Source: Escherichia phage UPEC03. Taken from it: a DNA stretch of 64,000 nucleotides. The stretch is taken from the sequence record MW250785. The stretch is one strand, 5' to 3'. A program made the position numbers and the translations under genes. The notes below the pieces were generated by a model. That model saw only the letters and a program-made list of their open reading frames with translations, did no database searches and was not told the origin of the DNA. Of this stretch, positions 17,521-46,454 are shown piece by piece (position 1 is the stretch's first letter; each line of letters starts with the position of its first letter).

Positions 17521-18447
17521 TTATTTACGAGAATCGAAAATCACTTTACCAGCGTAATCAGAACCCATGACAGTTTGAGGTACACCGCCCTGATATTTTT
17601 CCGCGATGGTCTGCTGAACATCAAGTTCTTTCCAGCGAATCATTTCTGGTGTAATGGTACGCTGCAACACGGCGTTCGCTTCGGCTTCTTTCTTAGCCGC
17701 ATACAGACGGGCATCAGCATCACGCTCGTTAGCCTGTGCAGCATTGCTACGGGCTTCTTTATCGGCAATTGCCTGAACAACTGCCTGTTGAGCGATTTGC
17801 TCTTTACGTGCCAGTTCTGCTTTCTCTGCGTTCACCTGTTCTTCACGAATTTTCGTGTTTTCAACCTGCTTCTTGATCGCTTCCGGCAGGTCGATATCCT
17901 GCAAGAATACCTGTTTCACGGTGTAACCGTAAGGGCGGGCATACTCTTCAACTTCCTGCTGGATCGCGATCTGTAGCTGGCTTTGAACTTCTGCATTATA
18001 CAGATCCTGTGCTTTCGGTACAGATTTACCGAACTCACGGACAGTTGACAGAAGTTTTTCAGTCACATATTTATCCAGCGCCTGATCCTGACTACCCGCA
18101 TTGATACGGTTGATCGGGGCTTTGCTACCATCGAACTGTAACATCACGGTCATATCCACAGTGGATTTGAATTTATCCTGGGACGGAACCTGCAATTTGT
18201 CAAACTTCATTGCGATGTCTTTGGTGTTGAACACCTCGAAATCAGCCAGTGGATTTACCAGGTGGAAACCAGGCAGAACAGGCTTCGGTGAAACTTTACC
18301 CATGAAGGTTTGAGTTTTTACCGTACCATCCTGAACGATAGTGTACGAGTTCGGAACCAGCCACAGAGCGGCGATTACGCCCAGAGCGATCAGTGTGGTT
18401 TTCTTCGGGTTGTTTACGATAGTGTTTAAGTTCATCATTATTTCCAT
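17521..18447 (-). CDS. SPFH / Band 7 (prohibitin, HflC/K-like) membrane protein
   Basis: N-terminal TM segment LIALGVIAALWLV, SPFH-like core, A/E/K/Q-rich coiled-coil C-terminus. Confidence 0.7.
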   Translation of the reverse strand: MEIMMNLNTIVNNPKKTTLIALGVIAALWLVPNSYTIVQDGTVKTQTFMGKVSPKPVLPGFHLVNPLADFEVFNTKDIAMKFDKLQVPSQDKFKSTVDMTVMLQFDGSKAPINRINAGSQDQALDKYVTEKLLSTVREFGKSVPKAQDLYNAEVQSQLQIAIQQEVEEYARPYGYTVKQVFLQDIDLPEAIKKQVENTKIREEQVNAEKAELARKEQIAQQAVVQAIADKEARSNAAQANERDADARLYAAKKEAEANAVLQRTITPEMIRWKELDVQQTIAEKYQGGVPQTVMGSDYAGKVIFDSRK

Positions 18448-18508: not shown

Positions 18509-18898
18509 TTAAGAAAGTTTTGTCAGCTTGTAAATCGTTTGATAGCACAAGCCTTTGATCTCGTCCAGGACGTTCTTCAATGAACTATCTACTGAATCAT
18601 AGATTTCGTTGGCTTCATCGGCTATTTTACGGAGATACGCGACCGTGTCAAGCACATTTTCTGTTTTTAATACGGGTTTGTATCGACCAGTAATGCCTAT
18701 ATGGATTTCGGTGAATTTATCAACCAAATCCTGCATATCTTCGTAAAACCCTTCAAATGCTTTATGCTGTGAATATGAACCAGTCGCAAAATGTGCGCTG
18801 TGCATATAGGTTACAGACATTAAGCAAGTGCCAATAAAGGCATCAATTTTACTCGCGGTATCGCGTTCTGTTACTTCGTTAAACGTCTGCATCTTCAT
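18509..18898 (-). CDS. Ferritin/Dps-like protein (tentative)
   Basis: HSAHFATGSYSQHKAFEGFYEDMQD resembles the Dps ferroxidase-site helix (two His 12 residues apart, then FE..YE..D); shorter than typical Dps. Confidence 0.4.
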   Translation of the reverse strand: MKMQTFNEVTERDTASKIDAFIGTCLMSVTYMHSAHFATGSYSQHKAFEGFYEDMQDLVDKFTEIHIGITGRYKPVLKTENVLDTVAYLRKIADEANEIYDSVDSSLKNVLDEIKGLCYQTIYKLTKLS

Positions 18899-18901
18899 CC
18901 C

Positions 18902-19186
18902 TTATGAACGATGAATAGCGGCGAATTCACTTGCAACCCGTAGCCCTAAACGTTTACATTCGGGTTCGGATTTACATTGCTTCTGCTGCCATTTTCGTTC
19001 CATGTAATTATAGAATAGTTCACTGATATTTACGCTGGGAGGGATGGTGTCAAGATATACCTGTAGCGCCGCATTGATATAGTAATCGAACTCTTTGGCG
19101 ACTACTGACCTATCATCAGCATGTGATGACGGAGACAAGATTAACAAACCAAACATCAGCGCTTTAGATATGCGTTTAATGTTCAT
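18902..19186 (-). CDS. Periplasmic lysis-inhibition protein, rI-like antiholin (tentative)
   Basis: 94 aa from ATG at 19186; signal/SAR-like N-terminus LLILSPSSHA; C-terminal two-Cys region; resemblance to T4 RI is from memory; located near tk. Confidence 0.45.
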   Translation of the reverse strand: MNIKRISKALMFGLLILSPSSHADDRSVVAKEFDYYINAALQVYLDTIPPSVNISELFYNYMERKWQQKQCKSEPECKRLGLRVASEFAAIHRS

Positions 19187-19236
19187 AAGCAATTCTCTAC
19201 GTGCTTACGGATCAACAATAGATCCGTTCCTGTATA

Positions 19237-19244
19237 TATTTATA
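19237..19244 (-). promoter_or_regulatory. Candidate T4-type late promoter (TATAAATA on minus strand)
   Basis: Exact TATAAATA about 50 nt upstream of the rI-like ATG, just downstream of a terminator. Confidence 0.35.
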
Positions 19245-20699: not shown

Positions 20700-20904
20700 G
20701 ATTAGCTCGCTCCACCGCTACCGCATCACGAACAGCATCGGTGATTTCATTTTCAACGAAATCCAGGATATCCGCTGTAATATCGTCGATACAGGATTGA
20801 TTGTAGTTACGTGAATCAGGATCATCATCTTCGGCATAATCCTGATACGCTTCGCCCAGTTGTTTCAGCTTGTGTTTTAACAGCTTTTGTTCTTGCGGTC
20901 TCAT
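20692..20904 (-). CDS. Hypothetical acidic protein (70 aa)
   Basis: Coupled ORF downstream of macrodomain gene. Confidence 0.4.
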   Translation of the reverse strand: MRPQEQKLLKHKLKQLGEAYQDYAEDDDPDSRNYNQSCIDDITADILDFVENEITDAVRDAVAVERANHD

Positions 20905-21398
20905 GATAAATCCGCCTTATGTGGATCAACCGATGGATCGAAGTGAACAACGATGATTGGATAATCACCCGTACACTCGTCGATAATGGCGCTAATACGC
21001 AACCAATCGCCACCAGCAAGCCCCGCACCGATAAGAGGGGTAATGATAGGCAATTTTTCAGGAAACGCACTGGCGCGTTCTACGGCGCTCACAAAGCATG
21101 ATCGGATTGCGTCATAATCCACTTGCGGGCCAGTACCCCAGAATTTAAACTGAGTGTAGGCATTGAAGACAATCTGACCTTCTTCCGTCATGTAGATGGA
21201 GTTAGTGCCTAACTTACGCTGGTCTCCTTTCATCGTCAATGCATCAATTTTGAACGCACCAGGGATTTTGTGCTTCACTTCTTTAGCAATACCCGCACCC
21301 ATGTTGCAATAACAGTTACACCCATGAATCAAGTGTACTTTTCGTTTCAGGAACAACTCTACAGCGTTCCCTTTGATTTCTTTAATAATCATTTTCAT
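20901..21398 (-). CDS. Macrodomain protein, TARG1/DarG-like (putative ADP-ribosyl hydrolase)
   Basis: HLIHGCNCYCNMGAGIA and PLIGAGLAGGDW resemble the TARG1 (C6orf130)/DarG macrodomain motifs; ATG at 21398. Confidence 0.65.
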   Translation of the reverse strand: MKMIIKEIKGNAVELFLKRKVHLIHGCNCYCNMGAGIAKEVKHKIPGAFKIDALTMKGDQRKLGTNSIYMTEEGQIVFNAYTQFKFWGTGPQVDYDAIRSCFVSAVERASAFPEKLPIITPLIGAGLAGGDWLRISAIIDECTGDYPIIVVHFDPSVDPHKADLS

Positions 21399-21622
21399 CA
21401 CCTGTATAGTGGCGGTAAGCCAGCACAGCCAGCCCCGCGATCACAACAATAACACACATTAAGATATAACCTGTGTTCATTTAAATTGGTCATCCCATCT
21501 TTGCCACGCTTCCAACTCGTCATCATATACAGGGAACGAGCTTTCGTTTGGCTTTTTAACGTAATACCAGATAATGATTGCAGCAGCAATCACACACCCA
21601 TAAAAGATCACTAATCCCAACA

Positions 21623-21943
21623 TCAGTATAATCCTATACCAGCGTTATATTCTTCAACCAGGTAAGTACGGAGTTTTTCACAACGTTCCTTATTTGGCGC
21701 TTTGGTGCAGAGGTTCATCATCGGTTCAGACTGCAAAAACTCACGCTGTTTAACCAGCTTCTGACGCTTGAAGAGGTGCGCATTTTCTTCGCCCCATACA
21801 TAAGCCGCGTCCAGTTGTTCAGCGATTACCTGTTCACATACCGCAACGTCTTTAATGTCACGATTATTGCAGAGTTCAGCCAGTCGATCATCAGCATGAG
21901 CAAAGCCAGCAAACAGAGTGAGTAACAGCGCAAGTTTTTTCAT
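21623..21943 (-). CDS. Secreted/periplasmic Cys-containing protein (106 aa)
   Basis: Signal peptide MKKLALLLTLFAGFAHA; four Cys in the mature part. Confidence 0.5.
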   Translation of the reverse strand: MKKLALLLTLFAGFAHADDRLAELCNNRDIKDVAVCEQVIAEQLDAAYVWGEENAHLFKRQKLVKQREFLQSEPMMNLCTKAPNKERCEKLRTYLVEEYNAGIGLY

Positions 21944-22970: not shown

Positions 22971-23037
22971 AATTTAATCCTCAATAGTTGGTACACACAT
23001 AATAAAAAAGCCCCTGCGAAAATGCAAGGGCTTTTTA
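22971..23037 (-). promoter_or_regulatory. Terminator-promoter module (copy 3 of 6, variant -10)
   Basis: Minus strand AAAAAGCCC-TTGCAT-N17-TATTAT; hairpin 23005-23036. Confidence 0.4.
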
Positions 23038-23685
23038 TCAGATAATGCGTTTTTCTTCTAACAGCTTCGCGGTATGGTTAACCATGCGAGCATAATCACG
23101 GGCTTCTTTCTTTGAATACTTGAACCCCGCGTTGTAACTCGCCAGCGCCTTTTTCAAGTCGCCTTTGTGGTAATCAAGCCAGTATTCCAGTTCGTGAAGT
23201 GCGTACTTGGAACCACCCCGAAGGGTTTCGAGCTTATTGATTACTACGCGTTTGGAATATGATTTATCCATTCGTGCGGACGCGCTACGGGCTGTTACTT
23301 GAAAACAACCATAAGCATGATGATTCTTTTTGCCTTTCCCTACGTTCTCACATGCGCGAGACTCGATCCAGGCAATAGCCGCTAAATGATATCCCAAACG
23401 TTTCGATGTTTCCGATTCAACTGGCTTTGCAGTTTTGAGATCGTATTCGTTACCGATCCTGAAAGCGTACTCCAAAACCTTTTTCTGCTTTGGTGTAATA
23501 TCATCCAATTCCTTAACATAGCTGAGGGCATTGGCTGGCGCTTTCTTCATTACTGTTGCTTGTTGTAGCGGTAAAGTTGACTTCACAGAAGGGAGTGTTT
23601 GGATAAACTCTCCTAACGGATCAGTCGCCGCGTTGCCAGAAAAAGAGCATAAGAAAATGCTGGCAGCAAAGATAATTTTCTTCAT
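23038..23685 (-). CDS. Lytic transglycosylase (SLT domain) with signal peptide
   Basis: MKKIIFAASIFLCSFSGNA signal; SLT motifs AIAWIESR, YGCFQV, YNAG; ATG at 23685 (listed start is TTG). Confidence 0.75.
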   Translation of the reverse strand: MKKIIFAASIFLCSFSGNAATDPLGEFIQTLPSVKSTLPLQQATVMKKAPANALSYVKELDDITPKQKKVLEYAFRIGNEYDLKTAKPVESETSKRLGYHLAAIAWIESRACENVGKGKKNHHAYGCFQVTARSASARMDKSYSKRVVINKLETLRGGSKYALHELEYWLDYHKGDLKKALASYNAGFKYSKKEARDYARMVNHTAKLLEEKRII

Positions 23686-23736
23686 TGTAATACCTATTTG
23701 TAACAAGAGAGGGCTATGATACCCTCGTCTTATTAT

Positions 23737-24306
23737 TTATGCAACGATTTTACGCTGTTTTGCTTCGGTCAGCTTTTTCTCGATGAATTCAGCAATGTTA
23801 TAGTTTGAAATTGACGCAATCGGATCGTACAGCGCTATGATTTCATCAAACGATACCCGAACCACATGTTTAAAGTAAACGCTCCAGCTTGTCGTAAAGA
23901 TTTCGCTGTGATCAAATCCACAATTAGGACTGAACAAGGCGCGGTATTGGTATCCGCTGTATTTGGTCAGACGGCTTGTGCTGTGCGCGTTACTGGTGAT
24001 GAGGAATTTCCCTGTGTGAGTCTCAACCACGAAGAAATAACCCAGACGTTCTTTGTTGTCCAGCATCGTTTCAAACTTACGATTGTTTTCTTCGCGCTCA
24101 ACACGGGTTTCGATCATCTTCCAGACCTGTTCATATTCAGGCCAATCATGCTCGACAACAACCCCTTTTATGGGTTCTTTGCCTTGCTCTTTACGATAGC
24201 GATCAATTTTATTCACTACCGCAGAGAGAAGCAGTTTGTCGCTATCACTTAACGCCGCATCAATATCCGCATATTTAAGCACTGCATAACGTTCTTCGCG
24301 TTTCAT
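23737..24306 (-). CDS. Hypothetical protein (189 aa)
   Basis: ORF with ATG start. Confidence 0.5.
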   Translation of the reverse strand: MKREERYAVLKYADIDAALSDSDKLLLSAVVNKIDRYRKEQGKEPIKGVVVEHDWPEYEQVWKMIETRVEREENNRKFETMLDNKERLGYFFVVETHTGKFLITSNAHSTSRLTKYSGYQYRALFSPNCGFDHSEIFTTSWSVYFKHVVRVSFDEIIALYDPIASISNYNIAEFIEKKLTEAKQRKIVA

Positions 24307-24712: not shown

Positions 24713-26059
24713 TTAAAAGTTCTCTTCGACGAATGCAGCCAGTCGCCCACGATATACGGTATCCAGGATCACATGACTTGAATGACCGTACTCTTTAAGT
24801 TTTTCAACCGCATACACAAAGCCGTTGTTAACAGCAGTGTTGCGCGGGTTGTCAATCTGTTTAATGTTCCCGCATAGTATCAGAAGGGTGTTCTCACCGC
24901 AACGGGAAATGATGGATTTGATTTCGTGATTGCTCAAGTTTTGACATTCATCAACAATCAGAACCGAACCTTTACCCGGATCAGGATGCCCGATTGAGCG
25001 CCCACGGAAGTAATACAGGCTAGGGAACTGGACAACGTTTTTCTCCAGCAGCCCTTCTACGTATTTGTCAACTTCCGGTTGATCCTTAAACAGAATGTTC
25101 AGGCTCGTAATACATGGTTCTACAGCAGGACGCAGTTTTTCGCCAAGAGTACCAGGTAAGAACCCGATTTCGCCCGACAGAGGGCTATCTGCCTTGACAT
25201 ACATCAGGTTTGCGAAGTGTCCCGCGTTTACCATGTGCATTGCACCAGCAACAGCCAGCATGGTTTTACCTGAACCCGCCGCGCCCATGATGGTCACAAC
25301 GTCATTGTTTTTGTCCAGAATAGCATCAACGAATGACGCTTGCAGAGCATCGCGAGGCTGAATTGTTTTCATCAGCTTACGCTTTAACGCCTGTTCGTGC
25401 TTAATAGGCAACACTTCAAGCTGAAACTCTCCAGCATTCACCACACGCCCTACAATCTCACCACACGATAGAATGTATTGGTTAGGGTAGAAATCCGCGT
25501 CAGGAAGCGATGAATACGTTATAACGGCAACAGGCCCGACATACTCCAGGACTTCAACAGTTTCCCAGAACAGAGGCAGGTCGATATAACCTGAATACAA
25601 CACATCACTATCTTTCAGCGAGTCATCGCCAGTGTATTGAAGAACCGAACAACCTTTAGACATCGCGATCAACAGCATGTTAATGTCACGAGTCACCAGA
25701 GTTGCGCCCTGCTGAATACAAGTTGCAATGATCCGCGCATCCTGTTTATCCAGAGGGAATTCTTCGGTGCCGTCATAATCGACGATTTTCAGTGTTACGC
25801 TTTCCGGTACTGCTGGGTTCGATAAGTTTAACGAAACCCCTGTTTGGGTAATTGCTTCATAATTTTGTCCCAGGATTGCTTTGGACAAAAGCCGGATCGC
25901 CAGTCGTGCTTCATGAGCGGTTCGCTCTTTGCTTTTCAGGTGATCCAGTTCTTCCATCGTTGCAGCGGTGATAATGATTTCGCTGTCAGGTTCGATGTAA
26001 GAATAGATTGAATATGGGTTACTAATCAAAACATTGGTGTCTAATACGTATTTTGACAT
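24713..26059 (-). CDS. phoH: PhoH-like ATPase with N-terminal PIN domain
   Basis: N-terminal YVLDTNVLI (PIN-like); Walker A GAAGSGKT; Walker B LIVDEC. Confidence 0.8.
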   Translation of the reverse strand: MSKYVLDTNVLISNPYSIYSYIEPDSEIIITAATMEELDHLKSKERTAHEARLAIRLLSKAILGQNYEAITQTGVSLNLSNPAVPESVTLKIVDYDGTEEFPLDKQDARIIATCIQQGATLVTRDINMLLIAMSKGCSVLQYTGDDSLKDSDVLYSGYIDLPLFWETVEVLEYVGPVAVITYSSLPDADFYPNQYILSCGEIVGRVVNAGEFQLEVLPIKHEQALKRKLMKTIQPRDALQASFVDAILDKNNDVVTIMGAAGSGKTMLAVAGAMHMVNAGHFANLMYVKADSPLSGEIGFLPGTLGEKLRPAVEPCITSLNILFKDQPEVDKYVEGLLEKNVVQFPSLYYFRGRSIGHPDPGKGSVLIVDECQNLSNHEIKSIISRCGENTLLILCGNIKQIDNPRNTAVNNGFVYAVEKLKEYGHSSHVILDTVYRGRLAAFVEENF

Positions 26060-26068
26060 ACATTAACC

Positions 26069-26593
26069 TTATGTGGTTTCGTTAAAAAATGTGCCGAAAA
26101 CCTCTTTCGCTTTCCGGTCATAAACGGCTTTTGCTTCTTCTGGAGTGGTATAATACCCCAAAAATTTTCTTTTTCCATCTATGTTTATCTGCGCTTTATA
26201 CTTCCCATTTGCTTTGTGATAAGAAACACCTTTCAACCCCGTACTGCTGTTTGAATTACATTTCTTTTTCATCGCGTTTTGTTGGTTCGTCGCTTTCTGT
26301 AGATTTCTTGCTGTATCTCCATTTTCAACACCATACACATGATCTACGATAGGAGGAAGATAACCATTCTCAACGTAAAACACTATTCGGTGTCGCAAAT
26401 ACATAGAACCTTTAAAATGAATTTGGGAATACTCGTTCTTGCTTCCGGCTTCACTTCCAGGAGACATAGGGCCGCGCTGAATTTTCCAATACACTTTTCC
26501 CGTAGATGTATCAACATCTACATAACTCAGAAGAGACTCAATCCCTTGAATCTCTTCCTGTATGGTTCTTGATGAATAACCATGACTTTTCAT
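26069..26593 (-). CDS. HNH endonuclease with AP2-like domain (paralog of 11917-12453)
   Basis: MKSHGYSSRTIQEEIQGIESLL... parallels the other HNH-AP2 protein; AP2-like LKGVSYHKANGKYKAQINIDGKRKFLGYY; ATG at 26593 overlaps upstream stop by 1 nt. Confidence 0.7.
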   Translation of the reverse strand: MKSHGYSSRTIQEEIQGIESLLSYVDVDTSTGKVYWKIQRGPMSPGSEAGSKNEYSQIHFKGSMYLRHRIVFYVENGYLPPIVDHVYGVENGDTARNLQKATNQQNAMKKKCNSNSSTGLKGVSYHKANGKYKAQINIDGKRKFLGYYTTPEEAKAVYDRKAKEVFGTFFNETT

Positions 26594-27063
26594 TACATAC
26601 CCAAACGGATAATATGGATATATGGGAACGGGTGAAGATGACTTGAACGCATACACAAGGTCAGTGTTTTTGCCAGTTCAAACCGTTCGTCGATCGTCAT
26701 GTCGCATTCATCGAAAATCAGGTTGATTGCCTGATACTTGATCGTTTGTCCACGGAAAATGGTATTCAGATCTTGACGTTTCGACAGAATGAAAGACGAA
26801 TCAGCGCCCTTATCCATTCCATGTTCTGCCGCAGCACAAATACCCATTTGCTTTGTCGGCGCAACGTAGATATTCAGTGTCCCTTTCGACTGCTTGATGA
26901 TATCGAAAGCCGCTTTGGTTTTACCCGACATCCGGCCCATATCCAGCGCAGTTTCGAAAATAGACACACCGCCGCATTCTTGCCCCCAACGCCCATCAAT
27001 GATTCGCGCAAGGTGCAGGTTACGTGACTGCTTTACAGCGTCAACATAGAATTGTGAAATCAT
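26593..27063 (-). CDS. Hypothetical P-loop-like protein (156 aa)
   Basis: Deviant Walker A-like GRMSGKT and Walker B-like LIFDECD; directly upstream of the HNH gene. Confidence 0.4.
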   Translation of the reverse strand: MISQFYVDAVKQSRNLHLARIIDGRWGQECGGVSIFETALDMGRMSGKTKAAFDIIKQSKGTLNIYVAPTKQMGICAAAEHGMDKGADSSFILSKRQDLNTIFRGQTIKYQAINLIFDECDMTIDERFELAKTLTLCMRSSHLHPFPYIHIIRLGM

Positions 27064-27072
27064 GTTGTCGCC

Positions 27073-27468
27073 TTATGCAAGTTCAACGTGTGGTGCGTCG
27101 ATAAATTTCGTTTCAATAGGAAGATTTGGATCGTTCTTCCAGTTGATACCGTAACGCAGTTTTACACCCTGTTCACCAGCGGCTTGTTTCACTGCATTCA
27201 GGACAGGCAACCACACTTTCGGGTTAGTCTGCCAGCCAGCAGGGAGAACGCTAGGATACAGATCCACAGCATCACCAGTGATGTGTTTTGAGTTCATGGT
27301 CTGGGAAACACCCTTGCGGACGTTCTCGCGCTGTTGCTCTACGGTGCGCAGACCTTCGCGTACACCAAAATCAACAGGCGAGAGTTCCAAAGCACGTTTT
27401 ACCACCTTAACCAGTTCCGGCTTCACGCCTTGCAGGTTGTTCAGGCTTTTCTGACTAAATTTAAACAT
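27073..27468 (-). CDS. Endolysin, L-alanyl-D-glutamate peptidase (M15 family, T5 Lys-like)
   Basis: SKHITGDAVDL (SxHxxGxAxD) and C-terminal DAPHVELA; overall pattern resembles T5 endolysin; AGAGG SD. Confidence 0.8.
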   Translation of the reverse strand: MFKFSQKSLNNLQGVKPELVKVVKRALELSPVDFGVREGLRTVEQQRENVRKGVSQTMNSKHITGDAVDLYPSVLPAGWQTNPKVWLPVLNAVKQAAGEQGVKLRYGINWKNDPNLPIETKFIDAPHVELA

Positions 27469-27535
27469 ACATACCTCTTTATGAAAATACCCTATGGGCT
27501 ACACAGGGTATTTACGGTTTAAGAGGCGCAACGTT

Positions 27536-27961
27536 TTACATGTAACCCCAAATTGCATCTTCCGCGCGATCGCGTTTCCAGCGAATCGTCATTTCAACAC
27601 TCTCCTGTTTGTCATCAGGAGGAAGTTTATCATTATTGATTTGTTCAATATATGCTTGCGCATCTGCTTCGCTACGGAACAACGCATGGAAATTATAATG
27701 GTTGCGCCCAGTTACGTTACGATCATCCAGAGAGAATTGACCTTTATTTTCCCAATCATCATACACAGTGATTCCGTTAACAAACAGCCCCAGCCCACGA
27801 TGTTCACGCGGGAAGCCAGTGATGATATGTTTTCGACCCATCTGTGCCTTTTCACCAGTGATACTGATTACTTCGTACAGGATTGCGCCAGGTTTGATAT
27901 CTTTCAGGACAGCACGTTTTTCAAAAGCGTTCATAATGTATTCCTCACAATTAGTTTTCAT
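27536..27961 (-). CDS. Hypothetical protein (141 aa; start may be internal ATG)
   Basis: ORF with ATG start. Confidence 0.45.
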   Translation of the reverse strand: MKTNCEEYIMNAFEKRAVLKDIKPGAILYEVISITGEKAQMGRKHIITGFPREHRGLGLFVNGITVYDDWENKGQFSLDDRNVTGRNHYNFHALFRSEADAQAYIEQINNDKLPPDDKQESVEMTIRWKRDRAEDAIWGYM

Positions 27962-27989
27962 ATACAGATTACCACAATCTGTTTTGATG

Positions 27990-28310
27990 TCAACAAGGTC
28001 TATCGTTTTTATTTGGGAAAGTTAACTGGAACAGGCGATCGTGTAATCCCTCGATCCGCTCATACGCTTGTTTCAGGATCGTCTTATCTTCTGGGTTCGT
28101 TGTCTCGATACAGATCAGTTCGTCCGAGTCGATAGCGATCACATCATCCATCAGTGAAGCGAATACGTTCACGTCAGGGTGAGTCAATTCCTTTATCTCC
28201 GCTTCCATCCCGTCATGCTGGGATAACAGTTCGATGATATCGCGCTGTAGATCTCCCTGGTACGGGAATCCGGTTTGAAGATGGTTAATAATTCTTTCTG
28301 CTTTGGTCAT
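27990..28310 (-). CDS. Hypothetical acidic protein (106 aa)
   Basis: ATG preceded by AGGTG and a hairpin (28325-28345). Confidence 0.45.
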   Translation of the reverse strand: MTKAERIINHLQTGFPYQGDLQRDIIELLSQHDGMEAEIKELTHPDVNVFASLMDDVIAIDSDELICIETTNPEDKTILKQAYERIEGLHDRLFQLTFPNKNDRPC

Positions 28311-28347
28311 ATTTCACCTACAAAAAAAGCCCCTTTCGGGGCTGGGA

Positions 28348-28611
28348 TTAAATGTCTTTGCACTGGCAAACACCGTATTTGGTGAAAGGCTTGTCACCGC
28401 TCAGGTAAGACCAGAAATCGCAAGCCTGTTCAGCGGTTTCGAAGATTACAGCATCATAGAAGCCGTGTTCTTCGTTACCATCTTTATTGAGGAACACAGG
28501 AAGCCAGCTTTGCGGTTTGAAGCAGTCAGTAACAACTACCCAACCTTCTTTCGCTTTCATTGCTTCTTTGTTCGCTTCAACCATTTCCAGCATTTCGTTC
28601 AGTAAGTTCAT
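28348..28611 (-). CDS. Hypothetical protein (87 aa)
   Basis: ORF with ATG start. Confidence 0.45.
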   Translation of the reverse strand: MNLLNEMLEMVEANKEAMKAKEGWVVVTDCFKPQSWLPVFLNKDGNEEHGFYDAVIFETAEQACDFWSYLSGDKPFTKYGVCQCKDI

Positions 28612-28683
28612 TTCAATCCCCTTGTTTATCTGTTTCGTTGTCTACGAGAGAGATATTATCACAACGGGGATTAGTGTCAACAG

Positions 28684-28947
28684 TTATTCGAAACGAATTG
28701 TGCTATTTTTGAAAAACATTCCAGAGCACACAGATCCTTTGATCTGCTTGCCGTTCACACCAGTTGCTTCGAATCCGGTTGAGTATGTGTCTTTTTCAGA
28801 ACATGCAAACCACTTGTAACCCGTGAACTGGATGTTCGTATAACCCTGTGCTTCCAGGATACGCTGTGCCTCTTTCTCGTCAGTACAGCTTGACTGCAAG
28901 AACACAACAACGACAACCATCAAAATACACACAACAATTTTCCACAT
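28684..28947 (-). CDS. Small secreted/lipoprotein-like protein (87 aa)
   Basis: Hydrophobic N-terminus IVVCILMVVVVVFLQSSC with a lipobox-like Cys. Confidence 0.45.
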   Translation of the reverse strand: MWKIVVCILMVVVVVFLQSSCTDEKEAQRILEAQGYTNIQFTGYKWFACSEKDTYSTGFEATGVNGKQIKGSVCSGMFFKNSTIRFE

Positions 28948-28950
28948 AAT

Positions 28951-29379
28951 TTATACTCTTTTAAGGTTAGTTTTGCTGGCTTCGATCCAGCTTACTTGGT
29001 TAGATCCAATATCACCCAGACATACAGTTGTATGACTAAATGTGTTCGGTAAAGAAACACCATCAGGAGATAACAACAAATCATGTACACTTACGCTGGT
29101 TGCATACAAATAACCACCGGACGTATACAGTGTTTTTATGAAATCATATGAATCGTTGGGCCACTTGAAACGGTATTTCTGGTTCCAGAGTTCAACTTCA
29201 TGCACATCATATTCATCGAACAGGGGATCGTTGCCCTTTGTCGCTTCGTAAAGCGCACCGCGCCATTCAACTAAATCCGCTTCGATATCACTTACACAAA
29301 ACTCTTCTTTTGCGCTCAGTTTATCAAGCATCATTTCAATAGTGCGGATAGCCATGCTTAATTCACGATCGAGTTTCAT
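28951..29379 (-). CDS. Hypothetical protein (142 aa)
   Basis: Internal ATG at 29379 gives an ATGA overlap with the upstream gene. Confidence 0.45.
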   Translation of the reverse strand: MKLDRELSMAIRTIEMMLDKLSAKEEFCVSDIEADLVEWRGALYEATKGNDPLFDEYDVHEVELWNQKYRFKWPNDSYDFIKTLYTSGGYLYATSVSVHDLLLSPDGVSLPNTFSHTTVCLGDIGSNQVSWIEASKTNLKRV

Positions 29380-43421: not shown

Positions 43422-44089
43422 TATTTCACCTTACAATTATCAAAATGCCACCTATACATTGCTCTGGGGTTTCCTTCTTTTCCGCAATGTGGACATATTA
43501 CAGGTTTCGTGTTTTTAGCTGAGTCGCGCATCTTTTGTTTTGCTTCTTCGCTAATAATTCTTCCTGTTAACGAAGCGCTAAGGTTATCTCTATGCTCTTT
43601 AGAACGGTTTGACGCAACTCTACTCATTTTTTGTTTGAATTCATCACTTCTCTTTATTCCGGTCATCCCTTCGGAAATACTTTTCTTGTGTGCTTCTGAT
43701 AGCGGTTTCCCTTTTATTGATTCTCGTCTTTTTCGTTTCCAATCATCGCTACGTGGTGGGTGTTTAGTCCCTATAGAATTGATTCGATTTTGTTCGGCTA
43801 CTTTCTCTCTGATCCATCCGTAAGTTCGAGAAGTCATTCTTCCAGAATGAAATCTTGATGCCATTGACATCATCTTACACGCGTATATAAGTTTTCCGTT
43901 TGTTGGGTACATTTTGACGAGTAGTTGATGGGCGAGATAGTGTTCTTCGGCAGTGAGACAAACGATATTTTCGGGTTCGTCCATTCCTCCCATACACCGA
44001 GGGATGATGTGATGGTTTTCTGAATACCCGCTTATAGTTCTTGATTGTGCTCTTTTGATAAGAAGTTCATAGTGTTTGCGGTAATTCAT
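43421..44089 (-). CDS. HNH homing endonuclease-like protein with basic repeats and C-terminal zinc ribbon
   Basis: HHIIPRCMGGMDEPENIVCLTAEEHYLAHQ; C-terminal CPHCG...C; AT-rich; sits between gp4-like and gp53. Confidence 0.75.
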   Translation of the reverse strand: MNYRKHYELLIKRAQSRTISGYSENHHIIPRCMGGMDEPENIVCLTAEEHYLAHQLLVKMYPTNGKLIYACKMMSMASRFHSGRMTSRTYGWIREKVAEQNRINSIGTKHPPRSDDWKRKRRESIKGKPLSEAHKKSISEGMTGIKRSDEFKQKMSRVASNRSKEHRDNLSASLTGRIISEEAKQKMRDSAKNTKPVICPHCGKEGNPRAMYRWHFDNCKVK

Positions 44090-44098
44090 GCGTATTCC

Positions 44099-44105
44099 CT
44101 AAATA
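44099..44105 (+). promoter_or_regulatory. Candidate late promoter (CTAAATA) for gp53-gp5 operon
   Basis: ccCTAAATAgt about 32 nt upstream of the gp53 GTG, with AGGAGA SD between. Confidence 0.4.
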
Positions 44106-44136
44106 GTAGTAATATTCATATTTAGGAGAAGCCATC

Positions 44137-44691
44137 GTGTTGTTCTCATTCTTTCCACCAGTTGATTACAAAGGCACACCAACTACTGATATCTACCGCG
44201 ATTATCGTTTTTACTTTAACCGCGTGATCAGGAATTATAAGCCGCGTACATATCAACTGACAGGTTCATTAAGACCCGAACAATTAGCGGAAACGCTATA
44301 CGGAAACCAGCAATACTACTGGGTTATCCTGATGCTTAACGATAATTACGATCCGTTTTACGGATGGATTACCGATCAGGAAACGGCTTATCAATGCGCT
44401 ATCCAGCGTTATTCAAAAGCAGGTGGTGAACAGGTTCTTTATCATATGGATGGTAAGGGCAACCGTTATTACAATTTGGTTGAAGACCCTACGAATCCCG
44501 GTCATTGGTATGACAAAGGCGATAAGAACATGCGTTATTTGCAGTACCAGGGAACATTAGTCCCTGTAGATATTTATGAAGATGCGGTGCTTCAAAATGA
44601 AGCAAAACGAACCATCAAGATTATTAACCCCTCTGATATTCAATCATTTGTAAGTGATTATATCAAGGAAATGGAAAAGGCAAACCTATGA
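44137..44691 (+). CDS. 53: Baseplate wedge subunit gp53-like
   Basis: 184 aa, GTG start with AGGAGA SD; overlaps gp5 start (ATGA). Confidence 0.6.
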   Translation: MLFSFFPPVDYKGTPTTDIYRDYRFYFNRVIRNYKPRTYQLTGSLRPEQLAETLYGNQQYYWVILMLNDNYDPFYGWITDQETAYQCAIQRYSKAGGEQVLYHMDGKGNRYYNLVEDPTNPGHWYDKGDKNMRYLQYQGTLVPVDIYEDAVLQNEAKRTIKIINPSDIQSFVSDYIKEMEKANL

Positions 44692-46454
44692 AATACGGTG
44701 GAAATAAATACTCCCCTTTCTTTGAGGGGGTGGTCGAAGAAGTCGATGATCCTCGTCTATTGGGGCGTGTTCAGGTGCGTGTATTCGGTGAGCATCCGGC
44801 ACAGAAACAAAAATCTGAAACTATCGGTATTCCGGTTGAGGAATTGCCGTGGATGATGCCTATTCAGGATATTCGCAGCGCCGCTATTTCTGGTGTTGGT
44901 TTTTCCCCGACTGGTATCACGCGCGGTAGTTTCGTTATCGGTTACTGGCGCGATAAATGGCACCAGGACGGCGTTATACTGGGAACCTTTGCGGGTGAGT
45001 ACCGAGAGAAGCCGGACACCCAGAAAGGCTTCTGTGACCCGTTTGGTGAGTATCCTCGTTATGTAGGTAACGATGTCAACGTACTGGCTCGCGGTGGCGC
45101 AGAGGGGCGCGGTTCTTCAAGCGTGATTATTCGTGATGCTAACAGTTCGTTAGCTGTCAATCCAGATGATCGCCCACTTGACGAGATCCCAGAAGATAAC
45201 CGACCTGATACTGGTGGGTTTACGATAGAAAAAATGATCCGTGGTGATGAAGGTATTAGATTGACGTGGTATTATGATGTTAAAGGTTATACCATCGGGA
45301 TCGGGCACTTTTTCTTAACCGCACCACAAGGAACAGACCCAGCAGTTGTTAACGCTGCGTTATCTAAACAAATTGGCAGAACGGTTACTGGTGTTCCTGG
45401 ATCAATCACTGCTGATGAAGCGAGTGTTTTATTTCAGCAGGATTTAGCTAAAGTTCATAACGATATTCAGAATAATAGCAAAGTTCGCGAAGTGTATGTG
45501 ACGTTAAACCGTCCTCGTCAAATGGCTATTGAAAATATGTGCTTCCAGATGGGTGTTGGTGGTGTCGCCAAATTTACGAATGCTCTGGCTGCTATGAAGC
45601 GTCAGGACTGGCAAACCGCTTACAACGAACTGCGAAACTCTACATGGGCTAACCAGACGCCAGGACGTTCTTCACGCGTATCTAAAATCGTTCTGACGGG
45701 CAACCTTGAATCATACGGTGTTCAGGTTCCAGATCCAGAAGGGCGTTCATTGAGTGCTGCTTATAATGCGGTGGTTCTGCAAGCAAGCAACCCAGAAGAT
45801 CCTTTTGTTCCTGGTGATACCCGCGTAATGTTCGAGGAACCTAAATCGGCATACGCTGCTGCATATCCATACAACATGGTATTCGAATCCCGTTCTGGAC
45901 ACATTCAGGAATTCGACGACACCCCAGGCTTTGAGCGTTACAACCGCGTTCACCCAGCAGGATCATACGAAGAAATTCGTCCTGATGGAACCCGTGTTGT
46001 TAAAATCGTTGGTGATGATTATCAAATCGTCATGCAAGGCCGTAAATTAAACGTCAAGGGTAATTTGCAGGTTGTTATCGAGGGTGATGCGTTCATTTAC
46101 AATATGGGTAACGTTCAACAGACCGTTGATGGTAACGTGACCGAGTTCGTGCGCGGTAACGTGAATCAAACCGTTGAAGGTGAATATTTGGGGCTGATTA
46201 AAGGCAACGCAGAATTAACCGTTGAAAAAGATGCAACCGTAAACGTGAATCAGAATTTAATGGCTAACGTTAAACAGAATGCAACCGTTGCCGTAACTGA
46301 GGATGCAACAATTACCGCAAAAAATGCTCTGATTGATATTGAGCAAGATTTGGATATTGGCGCACGTAATATCAACATACGAGCATCGAATAATACTTTC
46401 ATTGATTCCGGCGCACTGACTAAGATCACTGGCGGAACAGTCCAGGTAGGTTAA
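44688..46454 (+). CDS. 5: Baseplate hub subunit and tail lysozyme gp5
   Basis: Central T4-lysozyme-like domain (DEGIRLTWYYDVKGYTIGIGH, MCFQMGVGGVAKFTNAL, WANQTPGRSSRV); C-terminal beta-helix repeats (VxGNxxxxV). Confidence 0.9.
   Translation: MKYGGNKYSPFFEGVVEEVDDPRLLGRVQVRVFGEHPAQKQKSETIGIPVEELPWMMPIQDIRSAAISGVGFSPTGITRGSFVIGYWRDKWHQDGVILGTFAGEYREKPDTQKGFCDPFGEYPRYVGNDVNVLARGGAEGRGSSSVIIRDANSSLAVNPDDRPLDEIPEDNRPDTGGFTIEKMIRGDEGIRLTWYYDVKGYTIGIGHFFLTAPQGTDPAVVNAALSKQIGRTVTGVPGSITADEASVLFQQDLAKVHNDIQNNSKVREVYVTLNRPRQMAIENMCFQMGVGGVAKFTNALAAMKRQDWQTAYNELRNSTWANQTPGRSSRVSKIVLTGNLESYGVQVPDPEGRSLSAAYNAVVLQASNPEDPFVPGDTRVMFEEPKSAYAAAYPYNMVFESRSGHIQEFDDTPGFERYNRVHPAGSYEEIRPDGTRVVKIVGDDYQIVMQGRKLNVKGNLQVVIEGDAFIYNMGNVQQTVDGNVTEFVRGNVNQTVEGEYLGLIKGNAELTVEKDATVNVNQNLMANVKQNATVAVTEDATITAKNALIDIEQDLDIGARNINIRASNNTFIDSGALTKITGGTVQVG

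What the first reader, a model, noticed from the sequence alone, without database searches (positions are those of the whole stretch)
27073..27468. Endolysin is an M15 L-Ala-D-Glu peptidase, with a separate signal-peptide lytic transglycosylase
T4 uses a lysozyme-fold endolysin (gene e); here the best lysis-enzyme candidate is T5-Lys-like (SKHITGDAVDL). A secreted SLT-domain protein at 23038-23685 adds a second peptidoglycan enzyme. No holin or spanin was recognised in the window.
Basis: partly seen in the sequence, partly recalled or inferred. Interest (0 to 1): 0.4.

Follow-up and report, generated by a model that had tools for sequence, protein, structure and literature searches.

The report
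Known M15 endolysin of RB43-like phage
This T4-type phage of the RB43 group bursts its host with a small zinc peptidase that cuts the cell wall's peptide stems instead of with a T4-style lysozyme; this swap is real but already described and tested in close relatives, and the "second" secreted wall enzyme is a gene that T4 has too.

Summary
27073-27468 (-) is a 131-aa ORF with the M15_C zinc and catalytic residues (H62, D69, D124, H127, W110). It matches the solved T5 and RB49-type L-Ala-D-Glu peptidases over its full length (E about 1e-24). It is 93% identical to the KP27 endolysin, whose L-Ala/D-Glu cleavage was shown by mass spectrometry, and about 86% identical to EndoRB43.

The window comes from a Pseudotevenvirus (RB43/RB16/GAP161 group). 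In two complete genomes of that genus, the only T4 e-type lysozyme sequence is the gp5 tail-spike domain. Holin T and the i-/o-spanins lie outside the window, as in T4. The RI antiholin lies inside it.

The replacement of e by an M15 peptidase in RB16/RB43/RB49/KP27 is published, so the finding is ordinary.

One addition I did not find published: the endolysin leader carries a late-promoter-like TAAATACCC inside a hairpin, plus an upstream anti-Shine-Dalgarno. This is the same logic as T4 gene e. It recurs with different sequences in five genera, but the support is only suggestive.

The parts
27073..27468 (-). Endolysin gene: a 131-aa, single-domain M15_C zinc L-alanyl-D-glutamate peptidase. 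Zn ligands H62, D69 and H127; catalytic D124; conserved W110. No signal peptide or transmembrane segment.
   Evidence: ORF. PDB homologs 2mxz, 8q2g, 23ri and 5opz at E 1e-21 to 1e-25. PHROG 465. Residue roles from PMC10487532. Identity of 93.1% to KP27, 86% to RB43 (partial) and 46% to T5, and a 19-residue hydropathy maximum of 0.6.
27474..27479 (-). Shine-Dalgarno sequence AAGAGG, 5 nt upstream of the endolysin ATG.
   Evidence: Read from the sequence. It pairs with the upstream GCCUCUU in the predicted fold.
27506..27515 (-). Candidate late (gp55-type) promoter GTAAATACCC. The transcript start is inferred near 27503.
   Evidence: TAAATACCC occurs 4 times in the window against 0.42 expected, and no shuffle reached 4. 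Two other copies sit just upstream of the gp2 and gp6 starts. TAAATA precedes gene starts in 12 of 34 cases, against 41 of 552 for permuted hexamers, p 1e-5. The motif is invariant in 10 relatives. The -13 to -6 rule for the late promoter is from PMC1524935.
27485..27513 (-). Inner 12-bp hairpin (AAAUACCCUGUG / CAUAGGGUAUUU) followed by a U-rich stretch. Its 5' arm overlaps the candidate promoter. The equivalent hairpin is annotated as a terminator in the KP27 and CfP1 records.
   Evidence: Fold. 98% of cells paired across the 10-sequence alignment. 'Terminator' features in the records.
27521..27536 (-). Anti-SD GCCUCUU (27527-27521) and AAACGU (27536-27531). In transcripts reading through from upstream, these pair with the SD and with AUGUUU of the start codon.
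   Evidence: Minimum free energy -27.3 kcal/mol, z -4.87, 0 of 200 shuffles as stable. TIR unpaired probability 0.30 in the long transcript against 0.61 in the late transcript. This is an inferred function.
23038..23685 (-). Vs.1 ortholog: a Sec-signal-peptide protein with an SLT/GH23 lytic transglycosylase domain. E108-S109, G126..Q129 and S183-Y184-N185-x-G187 are invariant.
23005..23036 (-). Strong intrinsic terminator directly after the SLT stop codon.
   Evidence: 13-bp stem with 6 GC pairs followed by a T-run. Fold.
18902..19186 (-). RI antiholin (lysis-inhibition protein). It belongs to the same lysis system and has a canonical TATAAATA at 19244-19237.
   Evidence: ORF. T4 rI tblastn E 1e-8. 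Pfam Antiholin E 7e-26 on the ortholog in the relative. TATAAATA.
45219..45716 (+). T4 e-type (GH24) lysozyme domain inside the gp5 baseplate spike (gp5 ORF 44688-46454). This is an entry enzyme, not the endolysin.
   Evidence: tblastn with T4 e: 43.5% identity, E 2e-35, and the only hit. ORF.

Best explanation
The ORF at 27073-27468 (-) is the phage's only endolysin. [quoted passage not shown]

Proposed mechanism:
1. The enzyme has no export signal, so it accumulates in the cytoplasm late in infection.
2. It reaches the wall only when the T-type holin (encoded next to gp38, outside the window) opens the inner membrane. The timing of that step is set by the RI antiholin at 18902-19186.
3. The i-/o-spanin pair (next to pseT, outside the window) then disrupts the outer membrane.

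In T4 terms, this is a non-orthologous replacement of gene e inside the same nudE...vs.1 interval, with the rest of the T4 lysis machinery unchanged.

Expression is probably restricted to late times by a gp55-type promoter (GTAAATACCC) embedded in a leader hairpin. Transcripts that read in from upstream are terminated, or have the SD and AUG paired to an anti-SD. Transcripts that start at the late promoter lack those 5' elements.

Status of each step:
- Shown here: homology, intact active site, absence of e, presence of the partner genes.
- Shown by others on proteins 86-93% identical: muralytic activity and bond specificity.
- Inferred: holin dependence and the leader mechanism.

The SLT protein (Vs.1 ortholog) is a separate, Sec-exported periplasmic lytic transglycosylase. 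It is conserved across T4-type phages and its role is unknown. It is probably accessory wall remodelling, not the lysis enzyme.
For: Family and active site:
- establish the homology.
- H62/D69/H127/D124/W110 align with EndoT5 H66/D73/H133/D130/W114.

Activity in near-identical proteins:
- KP27 endolysin, 93.1% identical: turbidity assays and MS/MS of the M1 muropeptide.
- EndoRB43 hydrolyses GMTP at L-Ala-D-Glu and lacks Ca regulation.
- GAP161's copy already appears in the published M15_C alignment.

No e gene:
-.
- Uzan & Miller 2010 list RB16, RB43 and RB49 as having 'no apparent gene e'.

Partner genes in complete genomes of the genus:
- Phage_holin_T, E 1.3e-51.
- Antiholin, E 7e-26.
- An i-spanin with an N-terminal TM segment and an o-spanin with the lipobox LVGC.
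- All are 99-100% conserved in EcL22g.

No hydrophobic segment in the enzyme.

Synteny: rI.-1, rI, tk, tk.4, vs and vs.1 lie downstream and nudE lies upstream, as around T4 e.

Leader. Different hairpins that place TAAATA in the 5' arm and the SD/AUG in the 3' arm occur in Krischvirus MIZ4, Gualtarvirus MP1 and Bragavirus PM2. The T4 e precedent is, and the T4 leader was refolded.
Against: - No experiment was done on this exact protein.
- Pfam's M15_4 model scores below its gathering cut-off, and NCBIfam has no match.
- The window's own genome outside the 64 kb was not available. Absence of e and presence of the holin and spanins are read from two relatives that are about 97% identical to the window over most aligned segments (a few segments are as low as 88-93%).
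- Leader mechanism: the 10-sequence alignment shows no double-sided compensatory change.
- Leader mechanism: shuffling the upstream part occludes the TIR equally well in 11% of trials.
- Leader mechanism: two ordinary late genes show similar long-versus-late differences.
- Leader mechanism: PM2's TIR is not more open in the modelled late transcript.
- The terminator scan did not flag the inner hairpin.
Confidence: 0.9

Rival explanations
1. The Sec-exported SLT protein (23038-23685) is a second, holin-independent endolysin. It would share or back up the lysis function, as secreted or SAR endolysins do in other phages.
For: - It has a signal peptide and an intact SLT catalytic motif set.
- The lytic transglycosylase fold is confidently predicted.
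- A CATAAATA motif lies 54 nt upstream, so late expression is possible.
- Nolan et al. suggested 'some role in cell lysis' for vs.1.
Against: - It is the ortholog of T4 vs.1, and T4 keeps e as well.
- From established T4 genetics (my own knowledge, not a tool result), e-defective T4 fails to lyse although vs.1 is present.
- vs.1 is conserved regardless of which endolysin type a T4-like phage carries.
- There is no membrane tether or SAR-type regulation, so an efficient exported muralytic enzyme would act before assembly is complete.
- T4 vs.1 has no TAAATA within 110 nt upstream.
Confidence: 0.07
2. The ORF is a VanY-type D-Ala-D-Ala carboxypeptidase, as several GenBank records and the Pfam family name say, and not an L-Ala-D-Glu endopeptidase.
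For: - The only Pfam match is Peptidase_M15_4, described as 'D-alanyl-D-alanine carboxypeptidase'.
- The CfP1 and MP1 records carry VanY notes.
Against: - KP27 endolysin (93.1% identical) was shown to cut L-Ala/D-Glu and to have no D,D-carboxypeptidase activity.
- T5, RB43 and RB49 enzymes all cut L-Ala-D-Glu.
- The Pfam score is below the cut-off.
Confidence: 0.02
3. The leader hairpin upstream of the endolysin is only an intrinsic terminator for the upstream early gene. The SD/anti-SD pairing and the embedded TAAATA are incidental.
For: - KP27 and CfP1 annotators called the hairpin a terminator.
- No compensatory covariation was found.
- In the shuffle control, 11% of trials occluded the TIR as well.
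- The strong MFE z-score is driven largely by the inner hairpin.
Against: - A perfect 7-nt complement to the SD lies upstream and is kept in Slopekvirus, where homology of the upstream gene ends exactly there.
- JC221 has a different anti-SD (ACACCUU) matched to a changed SD (GAGGUGU).
- Three other genera build unrelated hairpins that bury the SD and/or AUG, with TAAATA in the 5' arm.
- TAAATACCC is shared with the gp2 and gp6 promoter regions.
Confidence: 0.4

Closest known systems
KP27/KP15 endolysin (Slopekvirus; Maciejewska et al. 2017, PMC5219037) and EndoRB43 (Pseudotevenvirus RB43; Mikoulinskaia et al.)
   Same: Same length (131 aa), at 93.1% and about 86% identity. Same catalytic residues, same genomic neighbourhood and same leader. 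These are T4-type myoviruses with a T holin, RI antiholin and spanins scattered around the genome.
   Different: Only 9 substitutions against KP27, none at the catalytic or Zn positions. In the window an extra 156-aa ORF separates the endolysin from the HNH-AP2 endonuclease, which in KP27 is directly adjacent.
EndoT5 (phage T5 Lys; PDB 2MXZ/8P3A), the founding L-alanoyl-D-glutamate peptidase of MEROPS M15_C
   Same: Same fold family and the same Zn triad and catalytic Asp. The alignment covers the full length at E 2e-24. The SKHITGDA motif is identical.
   Different: 46% identity. EndoT5 has a Ca2+-binding regulatory loop (GADWNASGDYHD). Here that loop reads GINWKNDPNLPIE, as in EndoRB43, which is reported to lack Ca regulation.
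T4 gene e lysozyme (GH24 muramidase) and its translational control (McPheeters 1986, as reviewed in PMC3014915)
   Same: Same role, same holin/antiholin/spanin partners and the same genome interval between nudE and vs.1. Apparently the same regulatory idea: a late promoter lies inside the 5' part of an RNA structure that blocks the ribosome-binding site on early read-through transcripts.
   Different: Unrelated fold and chemistry: a peptidase against a glycosidase. Here the SD is paired to a separate upstream anti-SD and the promoter-bearing hairpin is a distinct inner stem. In T4 one stem does both jobs.
T4 Vs.1 (NP_049725), a conserved SLT-domain ORF of T4-type phages (Nolan et al. 2006, PMC1524935)
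   Same: Signal peptide, the ES / GxxQ / SYNxG motifs and a position next to vs. Conserved in all T4-like genomes examined.
   Different: 32% identity. The window protein has about 35 extra residues between the signal peptide and the domain. It is separated from vs by two extra ORFs, and it is a hairpin-flanked unit with a TAAATA motif upstream that T4 lacks.

Membership tests
MEROPS M15_C / T5-Lys-type L-alanoyl-D-glutamate peptidases | Zn-binding H-x6-D ... H triad plus a catalytic Asp three residues before the last His (EndoT5 H66, D73, H133, D130) | tested here: met
   H62-x6-D69 and D124-x2-H127 align with the T5 residues in the phmmer and pairwise alignments. Residue roles are from PMC10487532.
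MEROPS M15_C / T5-Lys-type L-alanoyl-D-glutamate peptidases | Full-length sequence homology to members with solved structures | tested here: met
   2mxz E 2.1e-24 (residues 2-130), 23ri E 1.3e-25, 8q2g E 7.5e-25, ChiX 5opz E 1.6e-21. PHROG 465 E 3.5e-56.
MEROPS M15_C / T5-Lys-type L-alanoyl-D-glutamate peptidases | Conserved solvent-exposed Trp next to the active site (T5 W114, RB43 W110, RB49 W109) | tested here: met
   W110 in GINW aligns with T5 GADW.
MEROPS M15_C / T5-Lys-type L-alanoyl-D-glutamate peptidases | Curated Pfam model (Peptidase_M15_4 / VanY) reaches its gathering score | tested here: not met
   19.7 bits against a 25-bit cut-off, E 0.0013. The short generic model is weak for this subfamily. 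The other sequence criteria are met, so I do not treat this as exclusion.
MEROPS M15_C / T5-Lys-type L-alanoyl-D-glutamate peptidases | [quoted passage not shown] | not testable with these tools
   Shown for KP27 (93.1% identical) and for RB43, RB49 and T5. Inferred for this protein.
Canonical (holin-dependent, cytoplasmic) endolysin | No signal peptide, SAR or TM segment; a holin is encoded by the phage | tested here: met
   19-residue hydropathy maximum 0.6, with a polar N-terminus. Phage_holin_T at E 1.3e-51 in complete genomes of the genus. Actual dependence on the holin was not tested.
T4 e-type (GH24) endolysin | A stand-alone T4-lysozyme-fold gene | tested here: not met
   tblastn with T4 e hits only the gp5 domain, in the window and in two complete relatives. 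RB16 and RB43 are listed as lacking e.
SLT / GH23 family-1 lytic transglycosylases (for ORF 23038-23685) | Catalytic Glu in an E-S motif, plus the G-x-x-Q and (A/S)-Y-N-x-G motifs | tested here: met
   E108-S109, G126..Q129 and S183-Y184-N185-A-G187. E108, Q129, S183, Y184, N185 and G187 are invariant in 20 homologs including T4 Vs.1. Pfam SLT is above its cut-off, and 20 of 20 members match.
SLT / GH23 family-1 lytic transglycosylases (for ORF 23038-23685) | Lysozyme-like alpha-helical SLT fold | tested here: met
SLT / GH23 family-1 lytic transglycosylases (for ORF 23038-23685) | Formation of 1,6-anhydro-MurNAc products | not testable with these tools
   No biochemical study of any Vs.1 homolog was found in the searched library.
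T4 gene-e-type leader control (late promoter inside an RBS-occluding RNA structure) | Late promoter located in or before the 5' strand of a structure that pairs the SD/AUG, so that late transcripts lack the inhibitory strand | tested here: inconclusive
   The geometry is met, and the motif is enriched and conserved. There is no compensatory covariation, and the shuffle control gives 0.11. No transcript mapping is available.

The most novel reading that the evidence does not exclude
The temporal switch known from T4 gene e is attached here to a completely unrelated endolysin gene. In that switch, a gp55-type late promoter is buried in the 5' part of a leader structure that terminates early read-through transcripts or hides their ribosome-binding site. 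The same switch recurs, built from different sequences, upstream of the M15 endolysins of at least five Straboviridae genera: Pseudotevenvirus, Slopekvirus, Krischvirus, Gualtarvirus and Bragavirus.

On this reading, selection preserves or repeatedly re-creates the 'silent until late' leader whichever enzyme is plugged in. The published survey skipped these phages because they have no gene e.
Probability: 0.45. Interest if true: 0.35.

Novelty: already known. Interest (0 to 1): 0.15.

Why it matters
As stated, the finding adds nothing new. M15 L,D-peptidase endolysins of RB43, RB49, KP15/KP27 and GAP161 are published, purified and structurally characterised. They are already used as thermostable 'enzybiotic' candidates.

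Its practical value is for annotation:
- It confirms which gene is the endolysin.
- It shows that the neighbouring 'putative endolysin' label on the g100-like ORF in several Cronobacter phage records has no support.
- It shows that the SLT protein should be called a Vs.1 ortholog, not a lysis enzyme.

Two side points could matter more:
1. The endolysin module of T4-type phages can be swapped while its regulatory leader logic and all partner proteins stay. This is a clean example of modular replacement under a constant control scheme.
2. Vs.1 is a Sec-exported lytic transglycosylase conserved in T4-type phages for which no function has been reported. That question is tractable in T4 itself.

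Tried and rejected
- I first labelled the phage a Karamvirus from memory. The record taxonomy shows Pseudotevenvirus, so I corrected it.
- Pfam and NCBIfam naming of the M15 ORF led nowhere: Pfam is sub-threshold and NCBIfam has no match.
- Sequence searches of the SLT protein and its family profile against PDB found nothing.
The fold had to be tested with a model instead.
- Exact TATAAATA is not enriched in the window: 3 found against 2.5 expected. I therefore dropped the strict T4 consensus as the late motif here in favour of TAAATA(CCC).
- Covariation analysis of the leader gave no double-sided changes. This is partly because the SD region is misaligned by one column in KP27, Earwig and JC221.
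- The accessibility comparison with other late genes, and the shuffle control, were only weakly discriminating.
- The terminator/promoter scan did not flag the leader hairpin or a sigma-70 promoter for the endolysin.
- I looked for support for the 'putative endolysin' label on 27536-27961. The only match is Pfam Phage_g100, with no PDB match.
- Literature searches for a function of vs.1, or for a description of the RB43-type endolysin leader, returned nothing relevant.
Full report
**What is at the coordinates**

The ORF listing returns one ORF at exactly 27073..27468 on the minus strand. It has an ATG start and encodes 131 aa: MFKFSQKSLNNLQGVKPELV...NSKHITGDAVDL...FIDAPHVELA. A Shine-Dalgarno AAGAGG lies 5 nt before the ATG. 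Relatives annotate the same start.

**Where the window comes from**

Megablast of 26000-29000 finds 150 phage records. The best hits are at 98-99% identity: Enterobacter phages EC-F2 and Entb_46, Cronobacter phages JC03 and GAP161, and Klebsiella phage phi1_146010. The records' taxonomy lines place these, together with RB16, RB43 and CfP1, in Straboviridae, genus Pseudotevenvirus. The window is therefore a T4-type myovirus of the RB43 group. It corresponds to about 113.6-178.0 kb of the phi1_146010 record.

**The M15 ORF is a member of the T5-Lys family**

- phmmer against all PDB chain sequences gives full-length matches. These are the T5 endolysin (2mxz/8p3a, E 2.1e-24, query residues 2-130), 23ri and 8q2g (E about 1e-25), and Serratia ChiX (E 1.6e-21).
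- The 23ri and 8q2g sequence is that of the RB49-type enzyme of Krischvirus MIZ4.
- PHROG 465 'endolysin' matches at E 3.5e-56.
- Mikoulinskaia et al. 2023 define the strictly conserved residues of this subfamily as the Zn ligands H66, D73 and H133, the catalytic D130 and W114 (EndoT5 numbering). In the alignments these correspond to H62, D69, H127, D124 and W110 here.
- That paper's Figure 1 alignment already includes the GAP161 protein. GAP161 is 98.4% identical to the window in DNA across this region.
- Pfam's Peptidase_M15_4 model is the one criterion not met: 19.7 bits against a 25-bit cut-off. NCBIfam has no model that matches.

**Activity is known from near-identical proteins**

The protein is 93.1% identical (122 of 131) to the KP27 endolysin and 86% identical to the available 117 residues of EndoRB43. 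It is 46% identical to T5 Lys.

Maciejewska et al. purified the KP27 enzyme and showed lysis of permeabilised Gram-negative cells. By UPLC-MS/MS they showed that it produces GlcNAc-MurNAc-L-Ala, so it is an L-Ala/D-Glu endopeptidase and not the VanY-type D,D-carboxypeptidase that the domain name suggests. EndoRB43, EndoRB49 and EndoT5 all cleave a synthetic disaccharide-tetrapeptide at L-Ala-D-Glu. EndoRB43 and EndoRB49 lack the Ca2+ regulation of EndoT5. The T5 Ca-binding loop sequence is not conserved here. Specificity and Ca independence are inferred for this protein, not shown.

**Is there an e lysozyme as well?**

That hit is at 45219-45716, 43.5% identity, E 2e-35, and lies inside the 588-aa gp5 ORF at 44688-46454.

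In the complete phi1_146010 genome, fetched in four pieces, the only hit is again gp5. The same holds for the complete EcL22g genome, which is about 97% identical to the window over most aligned segments. Uzan & Miller 2010 independently list RB16, RB43 and RB49 among T4-type phages 'with no apparent gene e'. The M15 peptidase is therefore the only candidate endolysin.

The rest of this particular phage's genome was not available, so absence of e is shown for close relatives only.

**The rest of the lysis system**

In phi1_146010:
- The holin lies just after the gp38 adhesin (49407-50051). It matches Pfam Phage_holin_T at E 1.3e-51.
- Two adjacent 'Rz-like spanin' genes lie just before pseT (99167-99807). 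One has an N-terminal transmembrane segment. The other has the lipoprotein signal MKIATLALVLGVLLVGC.
- All are 99-100% conserved in EcL22g.

Inside the window is the RI antiholin at 18902-19186 (-). The T4 rI tblastn gives E 1e-8, and Pfam Antiholin scores E 7e-26 on the ortholog. One of the window's three exact TATAAATA motifs precedes it.

The endolysin itself has no hydrophobic stretch: its 19-residue Kyte-Doolittle maximum is 0.6. The most economical model is therefore the T4 pathway with a different enzyme: cytoplasmic endolysin, T holin, RI-mediated lysis inhibition, and a two-component spanin. KP15 and KP27 were described in exactly these terms.

**Position in the genome**

tblastn of the T4 proteins encoded between mobD and segB places homologs of rI.-1, rI, tk, tk.4 and vs.1 at 18.5-23.5 kb, and nudE at 36.07-36.41 kb. 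All are on the minus strand, in the T4 order. vs is identified by PHROG 1256 at 21623-21943.

T4 e lies between nudE and vs.1, and so does the M15 gene. The immediate neighbours differ: a Phage_g100-like ORF, phrog_2586, and an AP2-HNH homing endonuclease. This is a non-orthologous replacement within the same variable interval, not a precise ORF swap.

**The SLT protein**

It is real and probably active.
- Pfam SLT is above its cut-off for it and for all 20 family members tested.
- The alignment of 18 database homologs plus T4 Vs.1 has E108 invariant and S109 nearly invariant (the catalytic E-S motif). G126 and Q129, and S183-Y184-N185-x-G187, are also invariant.
- Sequence searches against PDB found nothing, so I modelled it.
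- The AlphaFold2 model has mean pLDDT 80.4, mostly 90 or more across the domain. Only the signal peptide and a linker are disordered.
- Foldseek's top hits are the same enzymes, with weak E-values.
- The N-terminus has a Sec-type signal and a GNA|A cleavage site. It is not a lipobox, and the Cys is not conserved.

However, it is the ortholog of T4 vs.1: 32% identity, E 1e-19, and adjacent to vs apart from two inserted ORFs. T4 Vs.1 also matches SLT and begins with the signal peptide MRKALLAGLLAISMMAHS. Nolan et al. 2006 reported vs.1 with an SLT match in 6 of 6 T4-like genomes.

So this is not an extra enzyme peculiar to this phage. T4 needs e for lysis despite having vs.1 (classical genetics, from my own knowledge), so it is unlikely to be an endolysin. 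I found no functional study of it. The gene is bracketed by a hairpin upstream and a strong terminator at 23036-23005. A CATAAATA motif lies 54 nt upstream of it, and T4 lacks that motif. Its time of expression is open.

**An addition: the endolysin leader**

The 67-nt spacer before the ATG reads (minus strand):

...UAAAACGUUGC**GCCUCUU**AAACCG**UAAAUACCC**UGUGUAGCCCAUAGGGUAUUUUCAUA**AAGAGG**UAUGU**AUG**

Folded as RNA, 27540-27450 gives -27.3 kcal/mol, with z -4.87 and no shuffle out of 200 as stable. The fold has three parts:
- an inner 12-bp hairpin;
- a 7-bp helix pairing GCCUCUU with the SD (AAGAGGU);
- a helix pairing AAACGU with AUGUUU.

TAAATACCC occurs four times in the window against 0.42 expected. 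Two other copies lie just upstream of the gp2 and gp6 starts. More generally, TAAATA is followed within 12-60 nt by an SD plus a long ORF in 12 of 34 cases, against 41 of 552 for permuted hexamers (Fisher p 1e-5). The genes concerned include gp2, gp3, gp53, gp6, gp7 and rI. Nolan et al. place the late motif at -13 to -6 and note that its first T is poorly conserved outside T4. That puts the late start near 27503, inside the inner hairpin and downstream of both anti-SD strands.

The modelled unpaired probability of the ribosome-binding region rises from 0.30 in the read-through RNA to 0.61 in the late RNA. This is the arrangement established for T4 gene e (review; the T4 leader was refolded).

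Conservation of the leader:
- It is conserved in RB16, RB43, CfP1, Taquito, EcRAM-01 and in Slopekvirus. In Slopekvirus, homology with the upstream gene stops exactly at the anti-SD.
- JC221 has a different anti-SD (ACACCUU) matched to a changed SD (GAGGUGU).
- Krischvirus MIZ4, Gualtarvirus MP1 and Bragavirus PM2 have unrelated hairpins, with TAAATA in the 5' arm and the SD and/or AUG in the 3' arm.

Caveats:
- The alignment shows no two-sided compensatory change.
- A shuffle of the upstream part occludes the site as well in 11% of trials, and two ordinary late genes show similar differences.
- PM2's modelled late RNA is not more open.
- Annotators of KP27 and CfP1 called the inner hairpin simply a terminator.

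I rate the T4-e-like switch at a little under even odds. I did not find it described, but the library is not exhaustive.

**Verdict**

The subject is already known: it is a routinely annotated, biochemically and structurally characterised endolysin family in this very genus. Interest is low. The leader logic and the unexplained, universally conserved Vs.1 transglycosylase are the only threads worth pulling.

Noticed in passing
window 18509-19244 (-): The RI antiholin (18902-19186) and the rI.-1 homolog (18509-18898) are present. One of only three exact TATAAATA motifs in the window lies at 19244-19237, just upstream of rI.
   Followed up: partly
window 44688-46454 (+), domain 45219-45716: The gp5 baseplate spike carries the only T4 e-type lysozyme domain in the window (43.5% identity to T4 e). 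The phage therefore has three peptidoglycan-active domains: gp5 GH24, the Vs.1 SLT domain and the M15 peptidase.
   Followed up: partly
window 27536-27961 (-): The ORF directly upstream of the endolysin (141 aa, Pfam Phage_g100, E 5e-25) is labelled 'putative endolysin' in several Cronobacter phage records (Cronuts, leB, Banach). I found no support: no enzyme-family match and no PDB homolog. It is probably an annotation carried over from its neighbour.
   Followed up: partly
window 26593-27063 (-): A 156-aa ORF (phrog_2586, unknown function) starts 9 nt after the endolysin stop codon. It has Walker A-like (GRMSGKT) and Walker B-like (LIFDE) motifs. It is absent between the endolysin and the homing endonuclease in KP27.
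   Followed up: no
window 26069-26593 (-) and 43514-44089 (-): Two free-standing homing-endonuclease genes are present. One is an AP2+HNH_3 gene two genes downstream of the endolysin. The other is a mobD-like HNH gene (E 2e-23 to T4 MobD) in a 43422-44138 segment that has no counterpart in phi1_146010 or EcL22g. The second has a TAAATA motif 35 nt upstream.
   Followed up: partly
window 23005-23036 and 23709-23744 (-): The SLT/Vs.1 gene is an isolated unit. A CATAAATA motif is followed by the hairpin GAGGGTATCATAGCCCTC 54 nt upstream, and a 13-bp terminator lies right after the stop codon. T4 vs.1 has no TAAATA within 110 nt upstream. This phage may express the gene late, unlike T4.
   Followed up: partly
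whole window: Exact TATAAATA is not enriched (3 found against 2.5 expected). TAAATA, especially TAAATACCC, marks the starts of late genes (gp2, gp3, gp53, gp6, gp7, rI and the endolysin). The late-promoter motif of this genus is thus the shorter form.
   Followed up: yes
window 17521-18447 (-), 20901-21401 (-), 24713-26059 (-): Other accessory genes in the same minus-strand block: an SPFH/Band-7 membrane protein (called 'lipoprotein' in one relative), a macro-domain/A1pp protein (tk.4 homolog), and a PIN-PhoH fusion ATPase.
   Followed up: no
window 21623-21943 (-): The vs (valyl-tRNA synthetase modifier) homolog begins MKKLALLLTLFAGFAHADD, which looks like a Sec signal peptide. That is odd for a protein said to modify a cytoplasmic synthetase.
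   Followed up: no
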